From Prorocentrum cordatum (Eukaryota), in contig CAUYUJ010000014.1 in the NCBI GenBank assembly GCA_963575745.1, positions 62,001 to 119,597 of the forward strand: a stretch of DNA of 57,597 nucleotides. The letters are read 5' to 3'. The notes under the pieces are model-generated. The model was not told the origin of the DNA. It made no database searches and saw only the letters and a program-made list of their open reading frames with translations. Made by a program: the position numbers and the translations under genes. Shown here one piece after another: positions 11,873-51,238 of this stretch (position 1 is its first letter; each line of letters opens with the position of its first letter).

Positions 11873-12620
<748 letters not shown>

Positions 12621-16992: not shown

Positions 16993-17165
16993 ATGTGGTG
17001 GCGACGGAAGACGCTGGAGGCGATCACCCTCGAGGCGGAGCGCGACGCCGCGAGCGAGGAGCCCAAGCTGGGCCTCACCGATCTGCTGTGCATCGGCGTC
17101 GGCTCCACCGTCGGCAGCGGCGTCTTCGTGCTGACCGGGGACGTCCTGCCCACGGCGGGCCCATC
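16993..17165 (+). CDS. APC-family cationic amino acid transporter (CAT/SLC7-like), exon 1 (start codon tentative)
   Basis: MWWRRKTLE...KLGLTDLLCIGVGSTVGSGVFVLTGDVLPTAGPS matches the CAT TM1 motif G-V-G-S-T-x-G-x-G-x-F-V-L-T-G...AGP; GC3-rich codons. Confidence 0.9.
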
Positions 17166-17951
17166 TCGAAGAGCGGCCAAAACCGGCAGTTGAGGGAGGA
17201 GGAGGAGGAAGAGGAGGAGGAGGAGGAGGAGGAGGAGGAGGAGGAGGAGGAGGAGGAGGAGGAGGAGGAGAGGAGGAGGAGGAGGAGAAGGAGGAGGAGG
17301 AGGAGGAGGAGGGCGAGTTGAGGGAACGGTGAAAATGGCCTTCGGGAGAGCCGCCTCGTCGCCACGACGCCACGACGCAGCTCGGAGAAAGGGTGTGCGC
17401 CTGGGCCCGGGAAGGGGTCCAGGGGCCGATGCTGAGCTGCTGCCGGGGGCGGCAGAGAGGGGGGTGATGATTAGGGGGGGAGGAGGAGGAGGAGGAGGAG
17501 GAGGAGGAGGAGGAGGAGGAGGAGGAGGAGGAGGAGGAGGAGGAGGAGGAGGAGGAGGAGGAGGAGGAGGAGGAGGAGGAGGAGGACGAGGAGGACGAGG
17601 AGGAGGAGGGCAAATTGGGTATGCTGGGACTGGCGCGCGCTCGCACCTGGTGTGAACGCAAGTTTCTCGCGCGCGGCCCCGCTTCCCCCGACTGGTCGGG
17701 GAAGAAACATGTGCCGCGCACGGGCGGGAGTCGGGAGCGGCCAAGAGGGGGGTAATGACTAGGGGGTGTGGATATCTTGACGGGGGCCATGCGATCTCCC
17801 CAGATTTCGTGGCGCCTCTTCTCATTTCATTACGTCCCTGGCCTCCCCGCTTCCCTGGGTCGCGCACATGCCGCCAGCCATGATATGCGCCCCCCCCTCT
17901 TGGACGCCACCCCCCCCTGGGCCGACCCGATGCTACTGTCTCAACTCGCCC

Positions 17952-18197
17952 TGCTTCGACATGCCGTTGAACTCGAAGAAGACAAAAAGCCATAGACAGA
18001 AACTTTTGGCGCTCCGCGCGGATTCTTTGGATCTGCGCTGGACCCGCTCCGGCGGCGCCTCCAGCGCCGCCCCTGGCGCGCTCCGCGCGCCAGGGAGGTA
18101 GCTCCAGCGCGGATCCAAGAAATCCGCGCGGAGCGCCAACAGTTTATGCTGACGCCGTTTTTGTCTTCTTCTATGCTCCGACATATCGTTGAGCTCG
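17952..18197. repeat. Palindromic MITE-like repeat; related copies at about 24550-24695 and 29222-29350
   Basis: Nested inverted repeats GAAGAAGACAAAAA/TTTTTGTCTTCTTC and TGGCGCTCCGCGCGGATT/AATCCGCGCGGAGCGCCA. Confidence 0.75.
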
Positions 18198-18352
18198 CCA
18201 CCCACCAAACCACCCCAACCCAACCCGAAGGCCTCAGTGTGCCCTCCACTTCCAGTGTGGGGGGGGGTCGGGGAGCACCGAGAAAACACATGTGGAACCC
18301 GTATCCCCCCCAACCCGAAATTCGGGTCTTCTTGTTGGGTTGGGGTGGTCTG
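18198..18352. repeat. MITE-like repeat; second copy at about 24401-24545
   Basis: CCACCCACCAAACCACCCCAACCCAACCCGAAGGCCTC...GTTGGGTTGGGG is shared by both copies, with inverted ends. Confidence 0.75.
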
Positions 18353-18574
18353 GTATGTAGCTTAGTTGCCTCGATACGCCCGTATTGAAACGCAACACGT
18401 CCCGTGTTCAAGCCGTCCGTGTCAATACGTTGCGTGTTGGCTCCACGTACTGGACCACGCTCTGGCGAATGTATCGCGTCGGATCTACGTTTTCAGCCCA
18501 CCTGTTGAGCTCCGCATCAGTTCGCTACGTGTTGCGTGTTGCGTATCGGTGCAGCTAAGGTCGGTAGTCATGAA

Positions 18575-18860
18575 CCTCAGGAGGGGAAGACACACACACA
18601 CACAGACACAATGAATCGTCGACTCCCCAGGAAAATATGGGAAACTATGGGCAGTGGGGGGGAAGACAAAAGCCCAGAACCTATGGGAAACTATGGGGCA
18701 TCTTTTTACTTGTGTGTACTTATGAAATAAGCATACACGAATAATATTTGTGTGTCCCAGGGCCCCTTCAATCCTGGCCGGGCCGATCTTTGGGCCCAGG
18801 ATCGGCATGTGCATGCCTCCCTGGCCAAGCCCGGGCGGAGTGTGCACCGTGTGCACTTGT
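18575..18860. repeat. Interspersed repeat; second copy at about 21270-21520
   Basis: Shared GGAAAATATGGGAAA...TGTCCCAGGGCCC...TTCAATCCTGGCCGGGCCGATCTTTGGGCCCAGG...AAGCCCGGGCGGAGTGTGCAC. Confidence 0.85.
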
Positions 18861-19213
18861 GTGCCCCCAGGGCCCCTTCCGAGCCGTGGCGCAACCGTTC
18901 GGAGGCCCGCGTGGGCTCCGTGGGGGGGCGGCGCGCCGGGCCACGCCGGCACGCCCGGGGGGGGGGGGGGCGCGCCGGCGGGCGGCGTCTGGGCGTGTGC
19001 AGCGCGCCGGCCTCCGAGGAGAGTCGCATGTAGGGGGCCACAGGCGAACCCTGCCCTACCCACATGGGGGAGGGCCCAGGTCTGTTCGGACTCGTTCGTG
19101 CCCAGTTCGACTCCAGCTCGACTCCAGCTCGGCGCAAGCTCGGCTGCATCCGGCGGGCGTTCGACGCAGCCGCGACGCACGAGTGGAGCAAGCGGCTCCA
19201 GGAAGGCCACCAG

Positions 19214-19367
19214 TCGGGGGCCACATGCGAACCCTACCCCTGCCCCCCACGATTTCTGAGGGGGAGGGTGGGGTTCACTTCGCTCGGGAGCTCCGGGTCG
19301 AAGTGAGCCCCGCCCTCCCCCTCAGAACTCGTGGGGGGTAGGGGTAGGGCTCGCATGTGGCCCCCTA
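19214..19367. mobile_element. About 153-bp palindromic MITE, same family as intron 2
   Basis: Near-identical to 20310-20462. Confidence 0.9.
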
Positions 19368-19417
19368 TTCGCAGGGGCCTCCGACGGGTTACCGGTCGGG
19401 TTCGAGTCGTGGGTTTT

Positions 19418-19580
19418 TAAGACGGGCCTGTCCCCATACAGAGGGAATCTTCAAGCATAGTCAAGACACATAGTCTGGGGACGATTCTTGGACCATTTTT
19501 AGGCATTTTGGGGGGTGCATTTTGGTATTGTTGTTTTCTTTCGTCCCAAATCCGCCTGTTAGGGGGACAGGCCCGACCTA
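19418..19580. mobile_element. MITE with TAAGTCGGGCCTGTCCCYCTACAGG-type TIRs; other copies or ends at 20908, 27078-27269, 27465, 29781-29938, 47206, 47326 and 48290-48314
   Basis: About 25-bp inverted termini around an AT-rich core, repeated through the window. Confidence 0.85.
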
Positions 19581-20149
19581 GTCGTAGGTCGGCCCAACAG
19601 AACAAGGGGTAGATACTCGTGTGTCCTGTCTGTAGCGCCTCGTGTCGCTCTCATGCCTGGAGCATGGGCTGCCCTCTGAAGAGTCTTGTGCCCTCTCGGG
19701 TTCCCTCTGCCGTCGGTGTCCCGACTGCGAATGCGCTCGGGAACTTTGGGATCGCGTGTGGCTCCGCGGGTTCTGTGCCACCACGCCTCGGCGCGACACG
19801 CCATGCATTTCGCGGTTTCCTGTCGTCAACGCCCCCAGCTTTTCCCGCTTTACCCCCCCCCCCGCGAGGCGGAGCGACGCGCTGTCCGCTCGCAAGGCAT
19901 GCCGTGTCGCCGGGGGGCCGCGTCCGCGACACGCTCTGCCGAAGTTCCCGACCGTCTGTCCTGGCCTGGCCGCCCCGCCGGCCCTGGCCTCCCGCCTGGG
20001 CGTTCGTCGTCGTCTGCCTGCTTCTCCCCTCTTCGCCCCCTTCCGCCGGACCGCGCTGCCTGCCCGGAACCACGAGGCGGGCTGCTGTCCCCAGCCACAT
20101 TGGCCTGTAGGTTCCTACCTGGCCGCCTGTTTTGTGCTCTTCTGCCGTC

Positions 20150-20309
20150 CGCCGCGCTGAGCTGGCTCGGCGCGGGCGCGGTGTGCCTCCTGTCGGCCCT
20201 CTCGTACGTCGAGCTGTCCGGGCGGGTGCCCACCTCGGGGGCGTGCTACGCCTACTCGCTCCACGCTCTCGGCGAGCTCGGCGCCGTCATCGGCGCCGCC
20301 TGCCTCACC
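20150..20309 (+). CDS. CAT-like transporter exon 2
   Basis: AALSWLGAGAVCLLSALSYVELSGRVPTSGACYAYSLHALGELGAVIGAACLT matches the CAT motif SALxYxExxxRVPxxGxxYxY. Confidence 0.93.
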
Positions 20310-20467
20310 TAGGGGGCCACATGCGAACCCTACCCCTACCCCCCACGATTTCTGAGGGGGAGGGTGGGGTTCACTTCGCTCGGGAGCTCCCGAACGAAGT
20401 GAACCCCACCCTCCTCTCAGAAATCGTGGGGGGTAGGGGTAGGGCTCGCATGTGGCCCCCTATCACC
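20310..20467. mobile_element. Intron 2: 153-bp palindromic MITE plus one copy of the 5-bp TSD, non-canonical ends
   Basis: TCACC (20305-09), TAGGGGGCCACATGCGA...TCGCATGTGGCCCCCTA (20310-20462), TCACC (20463-67). Begins with an in-frame TAG. Confidence 0.92.
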
Positions 20468-20540
20468 CTGGAGTACGGCGTCTCCGGCGCGGGGGTGGCC
20501 AGGAGCTGGTCGAGCCTGGTGGCGGAGCTCACGGGGGGAG
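20468..20540 (+). CDS. CAT-like transporter exon 3
   Basis: LEYGVSGAGVARSWSSLVAELTGG matches the CAT motif LEY...VARSWS. Confidence 0.92.
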
Positions 20541-21582
20541 GACCCTGGGGGCGTCGGCTGCCGGCGGCAACGGCAGGGGGGCTGGCCCAGGGGGGTTGGG
20601 GGGAGCAGGGGTCCCCAGCCGCCCACTCCTCGCCAGCGTCAGGTCTTCGGCCCTCCCCTCCCGCCCGGGAGCGCTCGGGCTCGCGGTCGGGGGGGGGCCA
20701 GCTCTGATCCATCGGCCATGCAGCTTTTCGCGGGCTCCGGGTCCCGGTCTCCCCCTCGCCGAGCTCGGCCGGGCCGATCCTGGGCCCCGGGTCGGGGCAA
20801 GCTCTGCACGCCTACGGTCGGGGCGCTGACGTGAGGGCCACTTTGAGCTCAGGAGGGGCTCGGTCTCTCTGGCCGTTCCTTGAGATCTGGGTCCCGGGAC
20901 CTGGTCTTAAGTCGGGCGTGTCCCCCTACAGGGTGGATTTTCGACGAAAAATACAGAATATGCAACACATATTCCAAAAATGGTAGAGCAGATTCCAAAC
21001 ATGGTAGAACATATTCCCGAATCGTCAAAATTGCATAACATATTCCAAAAATGGTAGAATAGATTCCACATTCCACATGGTATAAACAACATATTCCGAA
21101 ACTGGTAGAACAGATGCCAACATCGTCAACGCATAGCCCCAAATGGTCCGAAGTACTCCTTAAGATCTGGGTCCCGGGGCCTGGTCGCGGCCAGGGCCCG
21201 CCGTGGTCAGAGGCGCCCCTTCGCTCCTCGGATTCGGCAGTCCTCGTGGCAGCCCGACGACTGCATCCACTCAGGAGGGGAGAAACCACACACAGGCACA
21301 AGCAGTCGTCGATTCCCTAGGAAAATATGGGAAAAGATGTGAAGTGGGGGAGATTACAAAAACCCAGAACATATGGGAAACTATGGGGAATCCTGTTGTT
21401 TGTGTGTATTTTTTTTGTCTGTCCCAGGGCCCCTTCAATCCTGGCCGGGCCGATCTTTGGGCCCAGGCTCGGCACGTGCACGCCTCCCCGGCCAAGCCCG
21501 GGCGGAGTGTGCACGTGTGCTGGGCCCAGGATGGGCCAGGCCAGGAGCGGCGAGGCGGGTGCGGGTTGACGCCCCCCGAGAG
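20541..21582 (+). mobile_element. Intron 3 (GA-AG), introner-like
   Basis: Direct repeat GAGGA (20538-42 and 21580-84); residual inverted repeat GGGGGCGTC/GACGCCCCC; in-frame join. Confidence 0.75.
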
Positions 21583-21781
21583 GAGACTGGATGTTCGTGT
21601 GGTACACCGACGCCCGCGGGGAGGGCGACCTCTACTTCGACTGGCCGGCCGGCGCGATCATGGCTCTGGCCGTCGCCGTCGCTAGCTCCGGGCTCTCGGT
21701 CGGCAGGGTCGTGGTGAACGCGTTCACCGCCGCCAAGCTCGCCCTGGTCCTGTTCTTCATCGTGGGTGGACTGTCTGCTTG
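21583..21781 (+). CDS. CAT-like transporter exon 4
   Basis: DWMFVWYTD...FDWPAGAIMALAVAVASSGLSVGRVVVNAFTAAKLALVLFFIVGGLSAW, two hydrophobic helices in the expected position. Confidence 0.9.
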
Positions 21782-22093
21782 GAGCTCAGAGGAGAACAGG
21801 TACCGATACGGCGGGGGCGTTCGTTAAGGAGTGTGCTCGGCAGTGATGTCCACGGCCGGTCCACGATCTGCAGTTCCACCAGCTTCCAGACCCCGGATTT
21901 CTTATCCAACGGTTCCCTCTCCAACGGCAGGGCCAATGCCCTCGCCGTGCATCTGCCCGTCCCCCGCTTTCGTTTTTTTGGGGGGGCCTTGGAGGCTTGC
22001 CGCCACGGCTGGATGCGCCTCGACGTCCTGGCCAGAGGGCGCTCAGGGAGATGCCCAGGAAGCCGCGGGATCGGTACCTCGTGGCTCCGCCAG
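21782..22093 (+). mobile_element. Intron 4 (GA-AG), introner-like
   Basis: Direct repeat GGAGC (21781-85 and 22093-97); inverted repeat AGGTACCGAT/ATCGGTACCT near the ends. Confidence 0.8.
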
Positions 22094-22178
22094 GAGCGCG
22101 GACGCGTTCGCCTTCACGCGGCCGTTCTTCCCGCACGGCTTGGGCGGCACGGTCCGCGGGGCGTCCAAGCTCTTCTTC
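22094..22178 (+). CDS. CAT-like transporter exon 5
   Basis: SADAFAFTRPFFPHGLGGTVRGASKLFF matches the CAT motif FxPxGxxGxxxGAxxxFF. Confidence 0.92.
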
Positions 22179-22751
22179 TCGGCGGCGAGCGAGGGGGTGA
22201 TCACCAGCCTCGAACGTATCCCTATCCCTAAGATTGACACGCCAAAAGGCGATGACAATCTTCGGGATGCGCTCTGAAAAACTAAGGGAATCCCTAAGAT
22301 TGGCATTGTGTTGAGGCGATGCCCAGCTCAGGGATAGGGATCTGTTCCAGGCTGGTAGGGGGAGGCGAGAAGGAGCAGGCCTTCTCGGATGGCTCGGAAG
22401 AGCTCCGGCCTTCCGAGAAGTTTTCTCTGAGCCTCCCCCGAAGACACACACACACACAAAACACTCCTCAGAAGGCGCGAGGGCTTCTGAGAAGCCCCGC
22501 CGCCTTCTGAGAGGGCCCCCTCCTCCTCACTTCCCCCCCTCCCCCCCAGACCCCCGGCGTCATGTTTTTTTTCATAACGTCGACCCTGGAGGTCTCGACC
22601 CATTCCCCAGGACCAGTTTTTCATCATGGATCGTTATTTGATGGTTTTGAGGCCCAGTAAGGGCCCCAGAGGCCGAAAATAGCGAAAGATCGCCGCCTTG
22701 ATTTTTCAATGCTTTGGATACTTCTCCCCCCCTCGCTCGCCGCCGATCTTC
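22179..22751. mobile_element. Intron 5: TIR element plus 5-bp TSD, non-canonical ends
   Basis: TCTTC (22174-78), TCGGCGGCGAGCGAGGGGG...CCCCCTCGCTCGCCGCCGA (22179-22746, 19-bp perfect TIR), TCTTC (22747-51). In-frame stop at 22275-77. Confidence 0.92.
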
Positions 22752-22902
22752 GGCTTCATCGGCTTCGACGAGGTCTGCTGCCTGTCGGGCAGGGCCGCCA
22801 GGCCAGAGCGGGCCATGCCGCGGGCGCTGCTCGGCACGCTGCTGTGTGCGACGCTCATCTCGGCGGCGGCGCAGTTGGCGCTGGCCGCCATGGTGCCGGC
22901 AG
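22752..22902 (+). CDS. CAT-like transporter exon 6
   Basis: GFIGFDEVCCLSGRAARPERAMPRALLGTLLCATLISAAAQLALAAMVPA matches the TM6 F-x-G-F-D motif and TM7. Confidence 0.93.
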
Positions 22903-23818
22903 GCTCGGCGGCGAGCCCTGGGGGGGTGGGAGGCAGGGGGCGGGCCTGCTCAGGGGGCTCGGAAGGCCCCCGGCCTTCTGTCAAGTGACGAAGAACCACC
23001 CGCACCGGACAATTGGCGTTTACTAAACGGCCCTGGGCGTTTACTAAAAGCCTTGCCCTGTTCGATTCCTTCTTTGGGTGCGCTTACTAAACGGTCTCGC
23101 TTGTCGGGCTGGTTTGTTTTTGTTTGGGGCCATCTATTCTGGGGAGTTCTCTGAGCCTTCCCCGAAGGCACAGAAAGCGTCTCGGAAGGCTTGAGGTTCT
23201 GCGAGGGAGCAGCCCAGGCAGACCGCGCCATGCATGTTGCTTACGTCGGCCGCTGTGTGCTAGGTGCTGCCCCCTGCGCACGCGCTTCCTCTTATTCTCT
23301 TTCTTTTTCCTCCTCCTCCTCCTCCTCCTGCTCCTCCTCCTCCTCCTCCTCCTCCTCCTCCTCCTCCTCGCGACTCTTTAAAGCATTATTTCCGTTGGTG
23401 CGACCCGATGTATATGCTCGCCCGTAGGCAATTAAGAGCTGACCTCCCCGCGCCCCCGTTTTTGGACCCCCTCCTGGCTCTGGGACTGATCCACCCCGCC
23501 CCCGAGACGTTCAAATTCACCGCTTTTTATTTTCATCTCTATCGGTTGGCACACCAAGAGAGTAAAGCCTGTTCTCTCAGGAGGCCGCCCAAAGCCTGGC
23601 GCGAGCCGCCCTCCAAGCCGTCGAACTGCCCCTCGGCCAACCGGGTCGTCTGTGGCGTCGTCGGCAGTAGAGTGGTTGAAGACGTTGCCCCCCAGACGCT
23701 CCAACCTCCTCCTCCTCCTCCTCCTCCTCCTCCTCCTCCTCCTCTTCCTCTGAGGAGCCCCGCCGCATTCTGAGAAGGCTCGCGCCCTCCCACGTCCCCC
23801 CAGGCTCGCCGCCGACAG
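22903..23818 (+). mobile_element. Intron 6 (GC-AG), same TIR family as intron 5
   Basis: CAGGC (22900-04), TCGGCGGCGAGCC...GGCTCGCCGCCGA (22905-23815), CAGGA (23816-20). Confidence 0.88.
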
Positions 23819-23895
23819 GAGGTGCGGCACAGTGGCCGGAGGCCTTCGGTGCGCGGGGCTGGCTCTGGGCGAAGGCGCTGGCGAGCCTGGGAGAG
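23819..23895 (+). CDS. CAT-like transporter exon 7
   Basis: GAAQWPEAFGARGWLWAKALASLGE matches the motif AFxxxGWxWA. Found by hand; this frame is not in the ORF track. Confidence 0.88.
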
Positions 23896-24242
23896 GTCGC
23901 TCTCTTAGCTGCCCCGATGCGCACGCGTTGGACCGCAACGCGTGCCGTACTCGAAGCGTCCGTGCCAACACGCTGTGTGTGGGCTCGGCACGTGTTGGCC
24001 CACGTGCTGGCCAACGTGCCGCGCCGGACCTGCATTCTCGGTCTGCGTGTTGAGCAGGGCTTGGCCTAAGCGGTGTTTTGGCGACTTCGTGGGCCGTTTG
24101 CGTTGCGACTTCGTTTTGCGGTGAAGGCGGATTGAAGACAAAACGAGGGAGAACGAAAACAAAACGGGAACGAAAAACACCGTTTAGGTTCAGCCCTGGT
24201 GTTGAGCGCCGTGCCATCAGGCTGCGTGCCGGGGCAGCTGAG
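23896..24242 (+). mobile_element. Intron 7 (GT-AG), introner-like
   Basis: Direct repeat GAGGTCG (23893-99 and 24240-46); inverted repeat AGCTGCCCCG/CGGGGCAGCT. Confidence 0.82.
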
Positions 24243-24392
24243 GTCGTCCTGCTGCCCCTGGTGGTGCTCCTGAGCTTCCTGCCGCAGCCGGAGCTGCTGG
24301 CCGCGATGGGGAAGGACGGCCTGGCCCCAGGCTTCTTCGCCGCGCGGGCCAGCGGAGGCGCCTACCTCGGCGGCTCCCTCGCCTCGGGTGCG
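24243..24392 (+). CDS. CAT-like transporter exon 8
   Basis: VVLLPLVVLLSFLPQPELLAAMGKDGLAPGFFAARASGGAYLGGSLASGA matches the motif QPxxxxAMxxDGLxP. Confidence 0.92.
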
Positions 24393-25071
24393 GTGATTCA
24401 CCACCCACCAAACCACCCCAACCCAACCCGAAGGCCTCAATTTGCCCTCCATTTCCAGTGGGGGGGTCCAGGAACATTGAAGGAAAACATATGGAGCCCA
24501 TACCCCCCCCAACCCGGAATTCGGGTCTTCGGGTTGGGTTGGGGCATGACAACTCGGAGGTCCGCGCGGATTTTTCGGATCGGCGCCGGACCCCCCTCCC
24601 ATGGCGCGCGGAGCGCGCCCGGGGCGGCGCCGGAGGCGCCGCCAGGGGGCCCCAGCGCGGATATCCGAGAAGTCCGCGCGGACCTCCGAGTTTTTATGTT
24701 TACAGCCAAGTCGCTGAAGTAAGGAGCAGTTTGGGTAAGAAAGGGGCTCGACATTCATCAGGTCCTTCTGTGGCTTTTTCCCTGGCCTTCCTCGTGCACA
24801 CGGGCGCTCGTGGGGCCACAGAGGGGCCTCGCTCCCTGTTTCGCGTCCCTTCTTGCAGCAGCCCGACCGCATGCCGCTGAGTTCCTTCCCCCAGGTTTGG
24901 GGGTGGGCAGAACCCCCAACAGTGACACGTCGATTAGTGAATTGTCCGTTTTCGGTTCTCGAGAGGGCGCCGTGGCCGTTATTTTCCAGGCTTGCGGCCG
25001 CCAGGTTTGGGCCTCAGGTTGTTTTCACTAAACCACGTTTTACTAAAGGGGGGTCTGTCCATCCCCGACAG
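24393..25071 (+). other. Intron 8 (GT-AG), filled with interspersed repeats
   Basis: Direct repeat GGTGAT (24392-97 and 25071-76); in-frame join; no clear TIR. Confidence 0.8.
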
Positions 25072-25143
25072 GTGATGGTGGGCGCCGCCGCCTGCGTGCC
25101 CTTCTCGGTGCTCTGGGACGTGATCTCCCTGGGCGTCCTGCTC
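25072..25143 (+). CDS. CAT-like transporter exon 9
   Basis: VMVGAAACVPFSVLWDVISLGVLL matches the motif LxDxxSxGxL. Confidence 0.9.
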
Positions 25144-25946
25144 TCGGAGGAGGGCCCCGGTCGAGATCGCGGCGGCTCTCCCGCTCCCCGGCCTTGACGT
25201 CGGGCCAGTCCCTCTCCAGGGGGAAGCCCAAAAATGGTTTTAGAAACAGTTCGGAGGCGATTTTTCTAAGATTTATTTCTTTTCGACAATTTGTAAATAT
25301 TTTGTCCCTCCATTGTTCCGTCCACAATCCGCCCGTACGAGGACATGCACGACCTAATCCTGGCCCAACTCCGCTCCACGTCGGTCCCAGGACCCCTCCC
25401 GCGGGGACCATCCTGACTTGTTTCGGCGGCGAGCGAGGGGGGGGGAAATGAGGCGGAGAAGGCCCTCTCAGCAGGCGGCGGGGCTCCTCGGACGCCCCCT
25501 CGCGCCTTCTGGGCAGTTCCACTGTCTGTCTTCGGGGGAGGCTTAGGACAACTTCCCCAGACGGCCGGGGGGACTTCGAGGCCTTCTTCCGAGAAGGCAC
25601 GCCCCGTCTCGCCGCTTCCCCCCCCTTGGGCGCGCCGCCTAGTTTATGGCTTGCCGAGGCGGATGCGGCCGTGGCGACGAGGGGGAGGAGGAGGAGGAGG
25701 AGGAGGAGGAGGAGGAGGAGGAGGAGGAGGAGGAGAGAGGAGGAGGAGAGAGGAGGAGGAGGAGAGGAGAGGGAGGAGGGAGGGGGAGGGGGAGGGAGGA
25801 GGAGGAGGAGGAGAGGGAGGAGGAGGAGGAGGAGGAGGAGAAGGAGGAGGAGGAGGAGGAGGGAGGAGAGGGAGGCGCCGAAAAGGGCGGACGGCGCCGG
25901 GGCGGCGGGGGCGCCGGGGCCTCGGCTGGCTCTCCCTCCGATGCTC
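25144..25946. mobile_element. Intron 9: TIR element plus 5-bp TSD; exact removal is non-canonical
   Basis: TGCTC (25139-43), TCGGAGG...CCTCCGA (25144-25941), TGCTC (25942-46). Confidence 0.8.
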
Positions 25947-25983
25947 AGCTTCAACCTCACGAACACCTGCCTGATCCTGGTTC
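25947..25983 (+). CDS. CAT-like transporter exon 10
   Basis: SFNLTNTCLILVR continues GVLL and leads into the conserved L-x-L-x-R-Y. Confidence 0.85.
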
Positions 25984-26667
25984 GCTCTGCGGGCAAGAGT
26001 GAAACACACACGGTTCATTTCTGTTTCCTCGGGGGTTCTTTGATTTTTTTCGCGGCCAGGATCCTTTTATTTCTAGTTGTTCTTTCCTAGCGAGCACAGT
26101 TAGAAATGAGCACGATCGGAAATGAACGACGTGTATATCAATATCCACTGCGTCTTGGACTTTCCGGGAAGGGGCGCTAAAAGGCCGAGGCGCCGGGGAT
26201 GTGGATAAGGAGCTGGCCTCCAGGGGCCATGCGGTGGGGGCGTTGGTGAAGGAATGCGCCCAGGATGCTGCAGACCCTGGAGGATTCCTTATCTGATGAG
26301 GGCGGTGGTGATATCCATGGCCAAGCCTCGATCGGAGTTCCACCGGCCTCCAGACCCCGGATTCCTTATCCAAGGGTTCCTTATCCCATGCCCCCTCCAC
26401 ACTGCGCCTCTGGTGTTTGTTTGGGAGAGGGAACCCGAACCTCCAAGACGCAGTTAACCCAGAGATCCGATGTCGTGTTTTTTTCAATGCGGGGTCCCTC
26501 GAAGTCTCGACCCATTCCCCAGGACCGGTTTTTCATCCTGAGTCGTTCTTTGACGGTCCCGGGGCCCGGCGAGGGCCGCCAGAGGCCGAATGGTTAGAAA
26601 AACCTCCGTCTTGACTTTTCCAGTACGTTGGACCTCGGGGGAGGATGAATCTGCGCCTTGCCCGCAC
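25984..26667. mobile_element. Intron 10: TIR element with a diverged TSD; best reading GC-AC
   Basis: TIR TGCGGGCAAG (25988-97) / CTTGCCCGCA (26657-66); flanks CGCTC and CGATA; the join restores R-Y. Confidence 0.72.
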
Positions 26668-26705
26668 GATACGGCCACGCGGGCGAGACGTCCCGGCCGT
26701 CCGTG
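26668..26705 (+). CDS. CAT-like transporter exon 11
   Basis: (R)YGHAGETSRPSV, bounded by TIR elements on both sides and in frame with its neighbours. Confidence 0.75.
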
Positions 26706-26907
26706 GTGCTCGGGCCGGACGAAAGGGGGAGATTGGGAAAGGGGGGGTTACGAAATCTGCTGCATGCAGCTGGTTTCGGCCTCACCGAGGGGCCCCTTCC
26801 TCGATGCGCAGTCGCCTCCGGCGCCGGGAGGCGCCGGGAAAACCAGCTACGTGAGCTGAATCTCAACCCCCCGCCTTTGCTATCCCCCCCCTCTCGCCCG
26901 ACCCGAG
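26706..26907 (+). mobile_element. Intron 11 (GT-AG), introner-like
   Basis: GGTGC (26705-09), TCGGGCCGGACGAAAGGGGG...CCCCCTCTCGCCCGACCCGA, GGTGC (26907-11). Confidence 0.85.
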
Positions 26908-27045
26908 GTGCGCCTCGTGGCCGCGCTGTGGTGCACGGCGGCCCCGGCGGCCCTGGCCCTGTGGCGCGGCCTCGCGGGGCCGCTGCTGCGGGCGGAGCCC
27001 TGCGCCCCCTGGGCGGCCGCGCTCGGCCTCGTGCTGCTGGGGGCG
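26908..27045 (+). CDS. CAT-like transporter exon 12
   Basis: VRLVAALWCTAAPAALALWRGLAGPLLRAEPCAPWAAALGLVLLGA; hydrophobic, GC3-rich and in frame. Confidence 0.8.
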
Positions 27046-28993
27046 GCGCTCGGGGGCGGCACTCGAGCCCTCTGCCCTTCAGTCGGGCCTGTACCCCTAC
27101 AGGGGGATTCTTCGACGAAGGATAAAAAATACCCCCAAAATGCACCAAAAATGCACGAGAAATGCCAAAACATATTCAAAAAACAGTCCCCAGACTATTT
27201 TTGGACTATTTTTTTGAAGTATTTTTCATTTGTCGACAATCCTCCTGTAGGGAGACAGGCCCGACTCAACTCTACCCTGAGACCCGACGCTCCAACACAA
27301 GTTTTGTGGAGCGGCTGGATTTGGGCAGTCTGCGGCCTCGGGGGGCCCTCGCCAGGCCTCGGGAGCGTCCACAGAGCGACTCGGGAGGAAACGCCGGTCC
27401 CGGGGAAGTGGTCTGGACCTTCCCCCTGGGGCGGCGCTCGGTGGCGGAATTCGAGCCCTAGACGTAAGTCGGGCCTGTCCCTCTACGGGAGGGATATTCA
27501 AGAATTGTCCAAGAATAGTCTCGGGGCGGCGCTCGGCGGCGAAGTTCGAACCCTGTGCAGTGGGGGGCCATGCAAAAAAGCACCCTCCGTGCCTCCAGGG
27601 TGCCCTGGGGTTCTTGTGTTTCGATGGTTTTGCTTTGGAAAGCGCGACGCCCCCGCACCAAAAATCAACGGACGTCCTGGGGTCTCAGGATTGGGCTTCT
27701 TGTGGATGGTTCCTTGTGGACGGGCCTCCGCTGGACCCTCGCCGATCCACGATTTGGGCAGCTCGGTGGGCCGCGGGGGCAGTGCTCGGAATTCGTCGAA
27801 CACGTGGCGAAGTCCGAACCCTACCTGGGGATAGTACAAGCCACCCCTACCCCCAGCCAGGACCCCCTGGAGTACCAGGCCGGCAGGGGGGGTCCTGGCT
27901 GGAGGTGGGCATTGTGTTATGGGGCAAATGCCGGTCCCGCACCCAGCCAGGACCCCGCTGGATCACCAGGCCGGCAGGGGGGGTCCTGGCTGGGGGTGGG
28001 GATTGTGTTACGGGGCAAAAGCCAGCCCCGCACCCAGCCAGGACCCCCTGGATCACCAGGCCGGCAGGGGGGGTCCTGGCTGGGGGTGGGGATTGTGTTA
28101 CGGGGCAAAAGCCAGCCCCGCACCCAGCCAGGACCCCGCTGGGTCACCAGGCTGGCAGTGGGGGTCCGGGCTGGAGGTGGGGATTGCGTTGAGGGGTAAA
28201 AGCCACCCCCGCACCCAGCCAGGACCCCGCTGGACCACCAGGCCGGCAGAAGGGGTCCTGGCTGGAGGTGGGGATTGTGTTGAGGGGTAAAAGCCGGCCC
28301 CGCACCCAGCCATGACCTCCTGGATCACCAGGCCGGCAGGGGGGGTCCTGGCTGGAGGTGGGGGTTATGTTGAGACCCAGCCAGCCAGAACCCCCTGGAT
28401 CACCAGGCTGGAAGCGGGGCTCATGTCTTGAGGTGGAGGTGGGGATATTGTATTGAGGGGCAAACGCCAGCCCCGCTTTCAGCCAGGACCCCCTGGATCA
28501 CCACGCCGGCAGCGGGGGTCCTGGCTGGACAGGCTGGAGGTGGGGATTGCGTTGAGGGGCAAAAGCCAGCCCCGCACCCGGCCAGGACCCCCTGGATCAC
28601 CAGGCCGGCAGTGGGGGTCCTGGCTGGAGGTGGGGATTGCGTTGAGGGGTAAATGCCGACCCCGCAGCTAGCCAGGACCCCCTGGATCACCAGGCCGGCA
28701 GGGGGGGTCCTGGCTGGAGGTGGGGATTGCGTTGAGGGGTAAACGCCGGCCCCGCACCCAGCCAGGACCCCCTGGATCGCCAGGCCGGCAGTGGGGGTCC
28801 CCTCTGGGGGTGGGGGTGGGTTGTGCTGTCCTCCATCGATGGCTGGGTTGTCCTCGGGGTGGGGCTGGGTTGTGCTGGGGGTGGGGGTGTGGCTGGGGCT
28901 GGGGGTGGGTTGTGCTGTCCTCCTGCACCTGCCCCCCATCGATTCGGGAGAACCGATGGCCGTTTGGGACAGGGCTCGGGTGTCGCCGCTCAG
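27046..28993 (+). mobile_element. Intron 12 (GC-AG), introner-like with nested MITE and satellite
   Basis: Direct repeat GGCGCT (27045-50 and 28993-98); imperfect TIR GGCGGCACTCGAGCCCT / AGGGCTCGGGTGTCGCC. Confidence 0.78.
27840..28800. repeat. About 90-bp satellite with an internal hairpin, about 10 copies
   Basis: Each unit contains CCAGCCAGGACCCC and its reverse complement GGGGTCCTGGCTGG. Confidence 0.92.
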
Positions 28994-29055
28994 GCGCTGT
29001 GCGTCCTGGCGGCCCTCGGCGCGCGGGGCGTGGAGGCGGAGGAGGCCCCGCGCGG
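28994..29055 (+). CDS. CAT-like transporter exon 13 (3' end uncertain)
   Basis: ALCVLAALGARGVEAEEAPR continues the helix of exon 12 in frame; donor position not resolved. Confidence 0.65.
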
Positions 29056-31264
29056 GACCTCCGGGGCTCGAAGCGCAAAGCAAGAGCGGCATATCGTCGG
29101 GGGGCTGAACAAGGAACCCTTCTCGTTGGGGAGGGGCCCCGTGCTCCTCAATTGTTTCGCAGCTTGCCTTAGGTTGTCCTTAGGCCTTCGATGGGGAATC
29201 GAAGTTTAACTTATGGAGCACTTCTTGGAGGTTCGCGCGGATTCCTTGGATCGGCGCTGGGCTCCCCTTGGCGGCGCCTCCGGCGCCGCCCTGGGCGCGA
29301 TCCGCGCGCTCCGCGCGCCGATCCAAGAAACCCGCGCGGACCTCCGAGAAATTATGTGTCTGTCGGTTTTGGTTCCTCTCGGTCGGTATCGTTTAAACGA
29401 TCCCCATCCCCATCCCCATCCCCTTCGAGACCCCACCAAATTACCACCCCAGTTGGGCACACCCCTCGAAGCCCGAAGGGAGCGGCCTATATCCCCATCT
29501 AGGGCTAATCGGCCAGTGGGGCCCAGGCCGCGCCGCTGGGGATGGGGATCGGTTGAACGATACTCACTAGGGGCGGCCCAAGTCATCCCCCGAGCGTTCT
29601 CATAGCAGTGGCAGCACACGTGCGCATGCATGCACACCGATACTGAACCCCGCACGCCAGCGCCCTCCGAATTCGTCCTCGAAGGCCTTCGCGGCGAATG
29701 GCCTTGACGGCGGCCTCGCCTCGAGGTGGGCCCGGGCTCCGAGGGGTCCTCGGCCTGTGGCTGGCGGCAGAGGGCTGGTGTTAAGTCGGGCACGTCCCTC
29801 CACAGGAGGAATATTCAAAAAATAGTCAAAAATAGTCAGGCGACGATTTTTGGTTATTTTTGGATTCTTTCGGAGTGTATTTTGAGTATTGTTTTTTCTC
29901 GCCCCACATCCCCCTGTAGGGGGAGGCGCCCGACCTAAGGTCGGTGGCATGGGTGTGGCTCTCGGCCAGGCGCTTCGGGAAGCTGGCCCGGCCCGTCTCG
30001 TTTCGGAGCCCTGGCGCCGCCGCTGTTTGCCTTCAAGCTGCCCCGAGCTTGTTTTGAGCCTGTTCTTCGAGTGCCTTTTGCCTGCGCCTTTCTTGCCTCT
30101 GACTTGTGTCGAACCTGCCATTGGCTTGCTTCCCGGCTTGCTTTCGGCACGCCAGCATATTCAACTGGCTTGCGCTCGTGGTGTTCCAGCTTGATTTTGG
30201 CTTGCCGGGGGAGGAGGAGGAGGAGGTGGAGGAGGAGGAGGAGGAGGAGGAAGAGGAGGAGGAGGAGGAGGAGGAGGAGGAGGAGGAGGAGGAGGAGGAG
30301 GAGGAGCTGACGTGGTGAACTCAGATCCGCCGAGCTGGTACCTCCTGGCGTAGGCTGGCACGAGCCTCTGCACGTGCCGCATAGCTCGCCGGTGCCACGC
30401 GGGCGAGCGCGATCGCGGCTGCGCGCCTGTCACGAGGCCGCCCCAGAGGGGCCTGGGGGCTGAGGTGTGCGGGCGGCCTGAAGGAGGAGGAGGAGGAGGA
30501 GGAGGAGGAGGAGGAGGAGGAGGAGGAGGAGATACCCGCCCAACGTAAAACAAACAAGAGGAGGCGGAGGAGGAGGAGGAGGAGGAGGAGGAGGAGGAGG
30601 AGGAGCATCGTTGTAATTCGAATAGGATGTCAACAACATAGTGGATGTTGCCCAACGTTTTTTGAGCCGAACCTACGAAATATTACGTATCATGTTCGTA
30701 GATCTGCGACGTATTCTTTCGATGCTTTGACGAAGGTCGTCTCGTCGTCTGTCGTCGATCTTGTACTCGAGCAACGCGCGCGCACGGCCCTCAAGGAGGA
30801 TCCTTCGCAGCCGCCTTGGGCATCACCTGCTGTGGGCTGCATTCCCATAGCGCCGCGGAGTTGTAAGGCACGCTCCAGCTCAGTGCCCTGTGTGAGCTGC
30901 GCCAGTACTGCCGTGCGTCCAGCACACCATACCTCGAAAGCGGCCAGGCCCTCCTCTCCTCCTTCTCCTCATCCTTCCTCCTCCCTCTTACTTCCTCCCT
31001 ACTTTTTAGCCTCCTCTCTCTTCTCTCCTCTCCTCTCTCCTCTTTCTCCTCCTTCTCCTTTTCCTCCTCCTCCTCGTCCCATTCCTCCTCATCCTCCTCT
31101 CCCTCCCCTTCTCCTCCTCCTCCTCCTTCTCCTCCTCATCCTCCTTCTCCTTCTCCTTCTTCTTGTCCTTTTCCTTCTCCTTCTCCTTCTCCTCCCCCTC
31201 CTCCTCCTCCTCTTTATCCTTCTTCTTTTCCCTGCTCCCCCTCCCTTCTCCCTCCTGCTCCTCC

Positions 31265-37944: not shown

Positions 37945-38059
37945 GAGGCACCGGCGCGCGGACGACGTGGGCGGCGGCGGCGCTGGCTTCCGTGCCCCTG
38001 GAGTCCCGTACGTGCCTGGCGCCGCCATGGTGCTGAATTTCATGCTGATGGCGACCATC
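37945..38059 (+). CDS. CAT-like transporter exon 14 (boundaries approximate; final exon not found)
   Basis: ADDVGGGGAGFRAPGVPYVPGAAMVLNFMLMATI matches the CAT C-terminal motif FxxPxVPxxPxxxxxxNxxLM. Confidence 0.85.
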
Positions 38060-38109
38060 TGGGGGGCGGCTGGACTCCTCCCTCCTCCCTCTTTCTTCCT
38101 CCTCCTCCT

Positions 38110-40762
<2,653 letters not shown>

Positions 40763-40764
<2 letters not shown>

Positions 40765-49252: not shown

Positions 49253-49604
49253 CAGGGGGCCACGTGCGAGCCCCCCTGCCTTCGGATGCACCTCCTGGGA
49301 GGTCAGATTCTGATTTTGCCCTGGTCCGGAATCCCGCTTCTTAATCCCGCTTAATCCCGCTTAATCCGGCTTAATCCTGCTTGGTCCGACGCCCACTCCG
49401 GCGTAATAGCTTCCAAATGGGGCTTAATCCTCCTTAATCTTTCCGACGAAAACCTCCCAGTAGTTGCCTCCTCGCCCTATCCCCCACGATTTCTGAGGGG
49501 GAGGGCGGTGTTCACGTCGTTCGGGAGCTCCCGAGCGAGGTGAGCCCCGCCCTCCCCCTCAGAAATCGTGGGGGGTAGGGGTAGGGTTCGCACGCGGCCC
49601 CCTA
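49253..49604. mobile_element. Interrupted third copy of the intron-2 palindromic MITE
   Basis: Left end CAGGGGGCCACGTGCGAGCCC at 49253; body and right end ...GCGGCCCCCTA at about 49475-49604; TTAATCCCGC 10-mers lie between. Confidence 0.75.
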
Positions 49605-51114: not shown

Positions 51115-51152
<38 letters not shown>

Positions 51153-51153
51153 C

Positions 51154-51238
<85 letters not shown>

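What the first reader, a model, noticed from the sequence alone, without database searches (positions are those of the whole stretch)
16993..29055. Intact transporter gene in which 5 of 12 introns lack canonical splice sites and are bounded by TIRs plus a 5-bp direct repeat
Seen: removing the element plus one repeat copy at each junction gives an uninterrupted CAT-family frame across 13 exons. For introns 1 (CCATC/CCGTC), 2 (TCACC), 5 (TCTTC), 9 (TGCTC) and 10 (CGCTC/CGATA), no sliding position within the repeat gives an AG acceptor, and all five carry an in-frame stop. Known: dinoflagellates use GT/GC/GA-AG; introns defined by inverted and direct repeats are described in Amoebophrya, and structure-defined introns in euglenids. 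Inference: this large, repeat-rich genome also removes such insertions precisely, by stem-guided splicing or DNA-level excision, alongside ordinary spliceosomal introns in the same gene.
Basis: partly seen in the sequence, partly recalled or inferred. Interest (0 to 1): 0.92.

Follow-up and report, generated by a model that had tools for sequence, protein, structure and literature searches.

The report
Transposon introns without splice signals
An amino-acid transporter gene in what is probably a dinoflagellate is interrupted by five hairpin-ended transposon insertions that lack normal splice signals, and public RNA data show at least two of them removed exactly.

Summary
The core observation holds. 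Window 16993 to about 27063 carries 12 exons of an APC/CAT-like amino-acid transporter (1368-nt open frame; E 2e-146 to its best relative for exons 1-10).

- **Canonical introns:** 6 of the 11 introns between these exons can be cut as GT/GC/GA..AG followed by G.
- **Non-canonical introns:** 5 cannot at any sliding position: I1 17164-20147, I2 20305-20462, I5 22174-22746, I9 25139-25941 and I10 25983-26666. Each is flanked by a 5-bp direct repeat, has inverted ends starting 0-1 nt from that repeat, and carries an in-frame stop.
- **New RNA evidence:** exon-only contigs in two public runs match the window with 0 differences over 888 listed bases. They also stop at the I1 3' edge and do not enter I9. 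I10 was not covered.
- **Correction:** the gene does not end at 29055.

Best reading (0.72): these are real introns of the Amoebophrya introner type, removed at RNA level without GT-AG signals. This would extend the class to a GC-rich, repeat-rich genome, probably a core dinoflagellate. An insertion-free DNA copy is not formally excluded, and the mechanism is unknown.

The parts
16993..17163 (+). Exon 1 (ATG at 16993; the cut may lie up to 2 nt further right)
   Evidence: Custom HMM positions 9-66, 63 bits. TIGR00906 positions 20-59.
17164..20147 (+). Intron 1, non-canonical, 2984 nt. Flanking repeat CCATC/CCGTC. Inverted ends TCGAAGAGC.../...GCTCTTCTG. A composite holding at least 5 other repeat families.
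   Evidence: Cut options are TC..CG, CT..GT and TC..TC only. RNA contigs start lying exactly at 20148, with 341 or 328 further letters upstream. X3 has depth 0 in bin 19772-20040. Nested repeats are shown.
20148..20304 (+). Exon 2
   Evidence: RNA contig pieces with 0 differences. HMM positions 65-119, 73 bits.
20305..20462 (+). Intron 2, non-canonical, 158 nt. It is a 153-nt palindromic MITE (20310-20462) plus one copy of the TCACC repeat.
   Evidence: Joint 20304>20463 in X1 and X3, with 5 letters fitting both sides. None of the 6 cut options gives G[TCA]..AG. The RNA hairpin is -174 kcal/mol, z -18.9. Other copies lie at 19216-19368 (94%) and 49475-49605 (about 90%).
20463..20537 (+). Exon 3
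   Evidence: RNA contig piece with 0 differences. HMM positions 118-141.
20538..21579 (+). Intron 3, canonical GA..AG|G at shift 3. Flanking repeat GAGGA.
   Evidence: Joint in X1 and X3. Enumeration.
21580..21780 (+). Exon 4
   Evidence: RNA contig piece with 0 differences.
21781..22092 (+). Intron 4, canonical GA..AG|G at shift 1. Flanking repeat GGAGC.
   Evidence: Joint in X1 and X3. DNA contig X11 record 5 (22002-22152) crosses its 3' edge with 0 differences.
22093..22173 (+). Exon 5
   Evidence: RNA contig piece with 0 differences.
22174..22746 (+). Intron 5, non-canonical, 573 nt. Flanking repeat TCTTC. Inverted ends TCGGCGGCGAGCGAGGGGG match 21/22.
   Evidence: Joint 22173>22747 in X1 and X3, with 5 letters fitting both sides. 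None of the 6 cut options is canonical. Inverted-repeat score 39. A genomic relative (L003) has the same site uninterrupted.
22747..22899 (+). Exon 6
   Evidence: RNA contig pieces 22755-22899 with 0 differences. HMM positions 235-287, 74 bits.
22900..23815 (+). Intron 6, canonical GC..AG|G at shift 3. Same inverted-end start as intron 5 (TCGGCGGCGAG). Flanking repeat CAGG(C/A).
   Evidence: Joint in X1 and X3. Inverted-repeat score 44.
23816..23892 (+). Exon 7
   Evidence: RNA contig piece with 0 differences.
23893..24239 (+). Intron 7, canonical GT..AG|G
   Evidence: Joint in X1 and X3.
24240..24391 (+). Exon 8
   Evidence: RNA contig piece with 0 differences.
24392..25070 (+). Intron 8, canonical GT..AG|G. 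The only intron here without terminal pairing.
   Evidence: Joint in X1 and X3, plus 1 raw read of X21. Terminal duplex -13.5 kcal/mol.
25071..25138 (+). Exon 9 (leftmost cut; up to 25143 if the cut slides)
   Evidence: HMM positions 365-389, 21.9 bits. RNA joint 24391>25071.
25139..25941 (+). Intron 9, non-canonical, 803 nt. Flanking repeat TGCTC. Inverted ends TCGGAGGAGGG.../...CCCTCCGA.
   Evidence: None of the 6 cut options is canonical. Relatives are colinear across the junction. RNA depth in bin 25152-25420 is 0.73 (X1) and 0 (X3), although the contigs continue 209 and 611 nt past exon 9.
25942..25982 (+). Exon 10
   Evidence: Alignment with relatives.
25983..26666 (+). Intron 10, non-canonical by inference, 684 nt. 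Flanking repeat CGCTC/CGATA (3 of 5). Inverted ends TGCGGGCAAG match 10/10.
   Evidence: No canonical cut option. Relatives read R-[Y/C/L/A]-G-N-G-G across the junction. There is no RNA evidence, and the exact cut is undetermined.
26667..26702 (+). Exon 11
   Evidence: Alignment with relatives.
26703..26907 (+). Intron 11, canonical GT..AG|G (placed by homology only)
26908..27063 (+). Exon 12 (3' end not determined)
   Evidence: Alignment to the transmembrane 11-12 region of relatives.
37961..38062 (+). Conserved C-terminal exon of the same transporter family, outside the finding's coordinates
   Evidence: HMM positions 472-505, 24.1 bits, E 8.6e-07. PF13906 hit, E 8.4e-4, 19.8 bits, below the gathering score of 27.

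Best explanation
**What it is.** The five elements are true introns derived from non-autonomous DNA transposons with terminal inverted repeats and a 5-bp target-site duplication. They inserted into coding exons of a live transporter gene. They are removed from the pre-mRNA exactly, as the element plus one copy of the duplication, although no G[T/C/A]..AG pair is available.

**Shown**
- These are insertions into an ancestrally continuous reading frame.
- Mature RNA lacks I2 and I5 to the base.
- That RNA ends exactly at the I1 3' edge.
- That RNA does not run into I9.
- The same RNA molecules carry ordinary GA/GC/GT-AG splices.

**Inferred**
- Removal happens at the RNA level from this locus.
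- The helix formed by the inverted ends, which starts 0-1 nt from the duplication in all five, brings the two cut sites together.
- That helix, rather than U1/U2AF-type recognition of dinucleotides, defines the cuts.
- This would be the same kind of introner element described in the parasitic dinoflagellate Amoebophrya.

**One positional constraint.** In I1 the two repeat copies differ at position 3. The RNA alignment to the downstream copy begins at position 4, so position 3 is not the downstream G. This fits, but does not prove, the upstream A. If so, the 5' cut lies 0-2 nt before the inverted repeat, and the 3' cut lies 3-5 nt after it.

**Open.** Whether a modified spliceosome or another endonuclease/ligase system does the cutting is unknown.
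For: 1. **RNA contigs in two runs from different studies.**
   - X1 records 2 and 3 and X3 records 12 and 14 cover exons only.
   - The unique intron bins 20579-20847, 23269-23537 and 23538-23806 have depth 0-0.72.
   - The contigs match the window with 0 other letters over 888 listed bases in each run.
   - They carry 7 of 7 laid joints, including the two non-canonical ones with a 5-letter ambiguity.
2. **Family colinearity.** There are no residues gained or lost at I1, I2, I5 or I9 against TIGR00906, a 35-sequence HMM and 8 aligned relatives.
3. **Age argument against a dead copy.**
   - The duplications of I1 (4 of 5) and I10 (3 of 5) have decayed.
   - I1 has since received at least 5 other repeat families.
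   - Yet the exons show 0 differences from the RNA and no stop in 1368 nt.
4. **Same element type on both sides.** I6 shares its end sequence with I5 but sits in a CAGG[C/A] target and splices as GC-AG. The element type is a known intron generator when the target supplies splice sites.
5. **Terminal pairing.** Duplex energies are -27.5, -63.0, -48.5, -43.9 and -25.7 kcal/mol for I1, I2, I5, I9 and I10. The mean over 90 mismatched end pairs is -18.9.
6. **Precedent.** RNA-seq-supported introns with 8-20-nt inverted repeats and 3-5-nt direct repeats and no splice consensus occur in Amoebophrya (PMC7789003, passages read).
Against: - No DNA data set deep enough to exclude an insertion-free copy was available. 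X11 has single-copy depth of about 1-9 and contigs of 70-155 nt. It shows none of the joined forms, but this is weak evidence.
- Only 2 of the 5 junctions were seen base-exact. I10 has no RNA evidence.
- X1 and X3 are Logan contigs of unrecorded library type. I infer they are RNA from their behaviour.
- The raw-read RNA run X21 barely covers the gene, with 1 read on one canonical joint.
- cDNA-based data cannot by themselves exclude reverse-transcriptase jumping across a hairpin flanked by direct repeats. I2 is a textbook template for that artefact.
- The terminal pairing of I1 and I10 does not pass the 5% tail (-29.7) of mismatched controls.
- Canonical introns here have equally good stems, so the stem is not specific to the non-canonical class.
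- The search of 5.8 billion proteins found no protein containing exon 2. There is therefore no annotated product to compare.
Confidence: 0.72

Rival explanations
1. This window holds an inactivated copy. The RNA comes from an insertion-free paralogue or allele with the same canonical introns.
For: - No deep DNA control was available.
- The family has several paralogues in related organisms: 184 library hits at E up to 0.001, and four environmental contigs share an exact 26-mer of exon 6.
- Both runs' contigs break inside that conserved 26-mer region (22755-22772), as expected if paralogues share those words.
- Published dinoflagellate genomes are duplicate-rich (PMC10666404, passages read).
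Against: - The paralogue would have to predate the oldest insertions. I1 and I10 have decayed duplications, and I1 carries nested repeats that are 75-94% alike to their other copies.
- Yet that paralogue would have to be identical to this copy over 888 listed exon bases, with identical canonical intron positions.
- Five hits in about 1.4 kb of exon, with an otherwise intact 1368-nt frame, is not what neutral decay gives.
- X11 shows no joined form, though this is weak evidence.
Confidence: 0.1
2. The joined forms are cDNA artefacts. Reverse transcriptase jumps between the two 5-nt repeat copies held together by the hairpin, and the real RNA retains the elements.
For: - I2 folds into an almost perfect 72-bp hairpin of -174 kcal/mol, with the two TCACC copies left unpaired at its base.
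- Short direct repeats, missing splice signals and a strong structure are the classic signature of template switching (recalled knowledge; no paper read here).
Against: - The joined form is the one assembled, at the same depth as the rest of the contig, in two independent runs.
- The same RNA stops at the edges of I1 (2984 nt) and I9 (803 nt), whose unique interior bins have depth 0-5 against contig depths of 6.8-16. A jump of 3 kb at near-complete efficiency is implausible.
- Retention would put a stop two codons into I2 in a gene that is otherwise well conserved.
Confidence: 0.05
3. The elements are cut out of the DNA precisely, by transposase excision repaired on the 5-bp duplication or by a ciliate-like programmed elimination. 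Transcription then comes from the cleaned template.
For: - The product, element plus one duplication removed, is exactly what microhomology repair between the two copies would give.
- The elements have intact transposon ends.
Against: - All five would have to be excised in the same molecules.
- If excision were efficient, the assembly and the DNA run would show empty sites, and none was seen (weak evidence).
- I1 and I10 have decayed ends and duplications, which are poor transposase substrates.
- No soma/germline separation is known in this group (recalled knowledge).
Confidence: 0.05

Closest known systems
Non-canonical introner elements of Amoebophrya strains A25 and A120 (Farhat et al. 2021, PMC7789003; passages read)
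   Same: - RNA-supported introns without any dinucleotide consensus.
- 8-20-nt inverted repeats at the two ends.
- 3-5-nt direct repeats overlapping the exon/intron borders.
- Repeated MITE-like families.
- They coexist with canonical introns that have the same repeat layout.
   Different: - Amoebophrya genomes are compact, with non-canonical introns of 120-240 nt on average. More than 60% of introns there are non-canonical, and U1 snRNA was not found.
- Here the introns are 158-2984 nt in a repeat-rich, 63% GC locus.
- The neighbouring introns use the GA/GC/GT-AG|G pattern typical of core dinoflagellates.
- The genome-wide frequency and the snRNA set are unknown here.
Introner-like elements of Symbiodinium and Polarella glacialis (Roy et al., bioRxiv 10.1101/2020.10.14.339549, Results read). 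Also the 'introner elements' counted in Prorocentrum cordatum introns (PMC10666404; passages and supplement passages read).
   Same: - Transposon insertions with inverted ends create introns.
- The target duplications are 3-8 nt, including 5-nt classes with NAGGH or NNAGG targets that supply both splice sites. I3, I4, I6 and I7 look exactly like this.
   Different: - All described classes use G[A/C/T]..AG boundaries.
- The P. cordatum gene models were built with mappers restricted to GT/GC/GA donors.
- I1, I2, I5, I9 and I10 have no such boundary.
Nonconventional introns of euglenids (PMC12501133, abstract read; PMC11282704, passages read)
   Same: - Variable non-canonical borders.
[quoted passage not shown]
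- Duplication-like repeats at the borders.
- Probable MITE origin.
- Coexistence with spliceosomal introns in one gene.
   Different: - The defined Euglena code (N3-CDG ... CH'G-N5-6 followed by a purine exon start) is met by only 1 of 27 possible cuts here.
- This is a different eukaryotic supergroup.
- Circular excision products were not tested.

Membership tests
Amoebophrya-type non-canonical introner elements | The intron is absent from RNA, with borders other than GT/GC/GA..AG | tested here: met
   I2 and I5 have exact joints in X1 and X3, and none of their 12 cut options is canonical. I1 and I9 are supported at one edge each.
Amoebophrya-type non-canonical introner elements | Inverted repeat of 8-20 nt between the two intron ends | tested here: met
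   I2 44/45, I5 21/22, I10 10/10, I1 17/20 with one gap, I9 about 10/11. In one search the helix starts 0-1 nt from the direct repeat in all 5.
Amoebophrya-type non-canonical introner elements | Direct repeat of 3-5 nt overlapping the exon/intron borders | tested here: met
   Matches are 5/5 for I2, I5 and I9, 4/5 for I1 and 3/5 for I10.
Amoebophrya-type non-canonical introner elements | Repeated in the genome as a family | tested here: inconclusive
   The I2 element has 2 further copies in the window. In the DNA run its word depth is in the thousands, against about 1-9 for unique sequence. The outer elements of I1, I5, I9 and I10 have no full-length second copy in the 57.6 kb. I5 and I6 share end sequences. 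No genome is held.
Amoebophrya-type non-canonical introner elements | Removal occurs on RNA transcribed from the element-bearing locus | not testable with these tools
   This needs deep genomic reads and direct RNA reads from one strain. It is argued only indirectly here.
Euglenid nonconventional introns | Signature 5'-N3-CDG ... CH'G-N5-6 followed by a purine at the exon start | tested here: not met
   Only 1 of 27 cut options matches (I10 at shift 4).
Canonical dinoflagellate introners (Symbiodinium/Polarella classes) | G[A/C/T] donor and AG acceptor recruited from the element or its target duplication | tested here: not met
   Not met by I1, I2, I5, I9 and I10. Met by I3, I4, I6, I7, I8 and I11.
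Cationic amino acid transporter (CAT) subfamily of the APC superfamily (TIGR00906; PF13520 + PF13906) | Score at or above the curated family cut-off | tested here: not met
   Single exons score at most 31.7 bits against a cut-off of 681.7. Full-length relatives P0013, P0007 and P0012 have TIGR00906 as best or second-best family, but at 229-250 bits. They pass PF13520. PF13906 is passed by only 1 of these 3. The joined model could not be handed to the scanner. The protein is therefore CAT-like within the APC superfamily and not a proven subfamily member.

The most novel reading that the evidence does not exclude
**Proposal.** All introns of this gene, 'canonical' or not, may be insertions of one class of 5-bp-duplicating inverted-repeat transposons into the same purine-rich target, taken in either orientation.

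**Pattern behind it.**
- Sense-oriented targets (GAGGA, GGAGC, CAGGC, GAGGT, GGTGA; 3-5 purines of 5) happen to offer AG|G[T/C/A].
- Antisense-oriented targets (TCACC, TCTTC, TGCTC, CCATC, CGCTC; 0-1 purines of 5) offer nothing.
- Both classes survive in about equal numbers, 5-6 against 5.

**What it would mean.** Core dinoflagellates would possess a second excision pathway, independent of border sequence and guided by the terminal helix. It would be shared with Amoebophrya and so ancestral to dinoflagellates. Gene models built with GT/GC/GA-AG-restricted tools would systematically truncate or split genes in these genomes.
Probability: 0.2. Interest if true: 0.9.

Novelty: new member of a known kind. 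Interest (0 to 1): 0.7.

Why it matters
If these are RNA-level removals, three things follow.

- **Distribution.** Introns defined by transposon ends instead of splice dinucleotides would not be an oddity of the parasitic Amoebophrya lineage. They would also occur in a large, repeat-rich genome with otherwise typical dinoflagellate GA/GC/GT-AG|G introns.
- **Origin.** That would push the origin of the mechanism deeper in the group, or show that it arose twice.
- **Practical consequences.** It would give a tractable gene in which both intron types sit side by side in one transcript. It would also warn that annotation pipelines restricted to GT/GC/GA-AG break genes at such sites.

In five full-text searches of the held library I found no paper describing such introns outside Amoebophrya among dinoflagellates. 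Subscription journals are mostly not held. The published version of Roy et al. 2023 was seen only as its 2020 preprint.

Tried and rejected
- **Whole genome:** none is held, so I could not search for paralogues.
- **Word-indexed protein search** with exon 2, longer proteins: 236 candidates, none significant.
- **Earlier notes of this scan:** nothing by place, by sequence or by words.
- **Reads on the whole gene:** Only 17620-25680 could be laid, so exon 1, the I9 3' edge, I10 and everything downstream have no RNA evidence.
- **Raw-read RNA run X21:** 602 reads laid, almost all on repeats, so it adds nothing on the gene.
- **Metagenome scan with a 29-mer of exon 2:** no match.
- **Metagenome scan with a 26-mer of exon 6:** four contigs, L001-L004. 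All are more distant homologues, about 83% identical in exon 6. They do not bear on the paralogue question.
- **Antisense splicing:** I2 reads CT..AC at shift 4, which is GT..AG on the other strand. I5, I9 and I10 have no such option, so I treat it as chance.
- **A nearby canonical alternative for I10:** rejected by my own reading of the sequence. A CTG|GT donor with the GGAG|G acceptor about 30 nt upstream of 26667 would lose the conserved R-x-G-N-G-G. It would also run in a frame that ends at 26856 (frame list; alignment).
no GT/GC/GA..AG pairing found by hand. This is left open.
- **Rfam on the whole window:** 0 matches at gathering score.
- **Pfam on 274 open frames of 80 aa or more outside the gene** (150 + 124 of the 283 such frames found): apart from the PF13906 hit, only a few hits on low-complexity or repeat sequence reached gathering score (PT repeat, glycine zippers, GLTT, DUF4834). 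No neighbouring gene was identified. I left out nine frames inside the 38.3-40.8 kb satellite.
- **The repeat finder on 13000-57597:** swamped by that satellite and not used.

Full report
**What is there**

The window is GC-rich, 0.62-0.66 over the gene. It has one 100-N gap at 12028-12127.

From the ATG at 16993, a series of short open pieces on the + strand matches amino-acid permease profiles in colinear order.
- TIGR00906 positions 20-59, 68-116, 120-141, 242-261 and 260-309.
- PF13520 for two pieces.

A HMMER search with exon 2 (54 aa) against 1.84 billion representative proteins gave 184 hits at E up to 0.001 and 23 at E up to 1e-10. I built an HMM from 35 full-length hits. It places ten exon pieces in strict order, at positions 9-66, 65-119, 118-141, 157-215, 215-235, 235-287, 291-318, 311-366, 365-389 and 387 onward.

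The relatives are AA_permease_2 plus AA_permease_C proteins. Their best or second-best NCBIfam family is the cationic amino acid transporter model, at 229-250 bits against a cut-off of 681.7. The gene is therefore CAT-like within the APC superfamily, and subfamily membership is not proven.

**RNA evidence**

That share is about what the exons make up.

Two Logan contig sets from different studies and different organism labels (X1 and X3) behave as RNA.
- Unique intron bins have depth 0-0.72.
- Four contigs lie on the exons with 0 other letters and 0 gaps.
- X1 record 2 (881 nt) and X3 record 12 (868 nt) lie on 20148-20304, 20463-20537, 21580-21780 and 22093-22173, then jump to 22747.
- X1 record 3 (656 nt) and X3 record 14 (1058 nt) lie on 22755-22899, 23816-23892 and 24240-24391, then jump to 25071.
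- Each of the seven joints has 4-7 letters that fit both sides.

Sliding each cut gives these results.

| Intron | Result |
|---|---|
| I3 | GA..AG followed by G |
| I4 | GA..AG followed by G |
| I6 | GC..AG followed by G |
| I7 | GT..AG followed by G |
| I8 | GT..AG followed by G |
| I2 | TC..TA, CA..AT, AC..TC, CC..CA, CT..AC or TA..CC |
| I5 | TC..GA, CT..AT, TT..TC, TC..CT, CT..TT or TC..TC |

So I2 and I5 have no canonical option at all.

Two further edges are supported.
- The contigs begin to lie at 20148, the fourth base of the CCGTC copy. They have 341 and 328 more letters upstream, and X3 has depth 0 in the adjacent intron bin. This matches the I1 3' border.
- The contigs carry 209 and 611 letters beyond exon 9, yet bin 25152-25420 has depth 0.73 (X1) and 0 (X3). 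So they do not run into I9.

I10 and everything downstream were not covered. The raw-read RNA run X21 hardly covers the gene.

**Gene model**

Joining exons 1-10 at the RNA-defined or homology-defined borders gives 1176 nt in frame. The product scores E 2e-146 against P0013. It aligns with eight relatives without any gap at the I1, I2, I5 and I9 junctions.

Homology also places exon 11 (26667-26702), a GT-AG intron 11, and exon 12 from 26908. Together the 12 exons give 1368 nt without a stop.

The next conserved segment is the FRAPGVPYVPG...NFMLMAT motif of the C-terminal domain. It lies at 37961-38062, 9 kb beyond the finding's end. The last 60 or so residues were not found. A 2.5-kb short-period satellite follows directly.

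**Anatomy of the introns**

All five non-canonical introns have:
- a 5-bp flanking repeat (TCACC, TCTTC and TGCTC perfect; CCATC/CCGTC 4 of 5; CGCTC/CGATA 3 of 5);
- an in-frame stop;
- inverted ends that start immediately inside the repeat.

I2 is a 153-nt palindromic MITE.
- It folds as RNA into a near-perfect hairpin of -174 kcal/mol. Shuffles give -84.7 ± 4.7, z -18.9.
- Two more copies lie in the window, one nested in I1.
- Word depth in the DNA run is in the thousands.

I1 is a 3-kb composite that contains at least five other repeat families.

The canonical introns are the same kind of object. I3, I4, I6 and I7 have inverted ends and a flanking repeat of 4-7 nt, and I6 begins with the same TCGGCGGCGAG as I5.

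Terminal duplex energies:

| Group | Energy (kcal/mol) |
|---|---|
| Non-canonical introns (5) | -25.7 to -63.0 |
| Canonical I3, I4, I6, I7 | -33.2 to -62.5 |
| Canonical I8 | -13.5 |
| 90 mismatched end pairs | mean -18.9; 5% tail -29.7 |

What separates the two classes is only the target sequence. Flanking repeats of canonical introns have 3-5 purines of 5. Those of non-canonical introns have 0-1. This looks like one purine-rich target met in either orientation. That is an observation on eleven introns, not a test.

**What it most likely is**

A dead, transposon-riddled paralogue is the obvious rival. I rate it low for three reasons.
- The oldest insertions have decayed duplications and nested later insertions.
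- The exons are nevertheless identical to the RNA over all 888 listed bases in each of two runs.
- The exons keep an intact, well-conserved frame.

An element-free source copy would have to predate those insertions and still be identical.

Reverse-transcriptase jumping is a real concern for I2 taken alone. It cannot explain near-complete absence of the 3-kb I1 and the 0.8-kb I9 from the same RNA.

DNA-level excision would need all five removed together, and it left no trace in the shallow DNA run.

I therefore favour genuine RNA-level removal of transposon-derived introns without splice dinucleotides (0.72). The mechanism is not shown.

One constraint comes from I1, where the two repeat copies differ at position 3. 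The RNA does not match the downstream G there, which fits the upstream A. On that reading the 5' cut lies 0-2 nt before the helix and the 3' cut 3-5 nt after it.

**Comparison with what is known**

- **Amoebophrya.** The layout matches the introner elements of Amoebophrya A25 and A120: 8-20-nt inverted repeats, 3-5-nt direct repeats, no dinucleotide consensus, RNA-seq support (PMC7789003, passages).
- **Euglena.** The layout does not fit the Euglena code; 1 of 27 cut options matches (PMC12501133, abstract).
- **Core dinoflagellates.**
  - Introners described in Symbiodinium and Polarella all use G[A/C/T]..AG (bioRxiv 10.1101/2020.10.14.339549, Results).
  - In Prorocentrum cordatum, introner elements were counted in 2.4% of introns of gene models built with GT/GC/GA-restricted mappers.
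  - That paper's review file notes an unusually low share (79.7%) of AGG acceptors (PMC10666404, passages and supplement passages).
- **Reviews.** Two reviews list non-canonical transposon-type introns among dinoflagellates only for Amoebophrya (PMC11453091 and PMC11282704, passages).

No tool named this window's organism. A core dinoflagellate with a large genome is my inference from three things: the GC content, the repeat load, and the GA/GC/GT-AG|G introns.

**Verdict**

- The 3' end of the gene model is wrong.
- This is a new member of a known kind.
- It has a credible chance of pointing to a more general helix-guided excision pathway in dinoflagellates that does not depend on border sequence.

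Noticed in passing
window 37961-38062 (+), and 38100-40900: A conserved C-terminal exon of the transporter lies 9 kb beyond the finding's end. It is followed directly by a satellite of about 2.5 kb with low GC and a period of 9-15 nt. The gene's last exon(s) must therefore lie beyond or within very large introns.
   Followed up: partly
   Followed up: no
window 18002-18132, 24561-24682, 29220-29309: A palindromic repeat family has very high word depth in the RNA contig sets: up to 6576 in X1, against 11 for the gene's own contigs. Unlike the introns here, it is abundantly present in RNA.
   Followed up: no
window introns 3, 4, 6, 7 and 8: The flanking repeats of the canonical introns are purine-rich (GAGGA, GGAGC, CAGGC, GAGGT, GGTGA). 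Those of the non-canonical introns are pyrimidine-rich. TCACC is the exact reverse complement of GGTGA. This suggests a single transposon target met in both orientations.
   Followed up: partly
L003:340-900: A genomic metagenome contig carries a related transporter with about 60% protein identity. Its sequence is uninterrupted at the site where I5 sits. It has two introns that begin with nearly the same 30 or so nt (GTACGTTCG...GAGCATAT.TCATTG), which looks like an introner family in another organism.
   Followed up: no
window 55812-55946 (+) and 51117-51188 (+): There are weak hits of the transporter HMM: positions 161-205 at E 0.018, and positions 444-468 at E 0.078. They may be fragments of a second family member downstream, or chance.
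   Followed up: no
window 22755-22772: Both RNA contig sets break at the same place inside exon 6. The break lies within a 26-mer that is identical in four environmental homologues. It probably reflects words shared among expressed paralogues rather than anything at the I5 junction.
   Followed up: partly
window 12028-12127: A run of 100 N, which is a scaffold gap.
   Followed up: no
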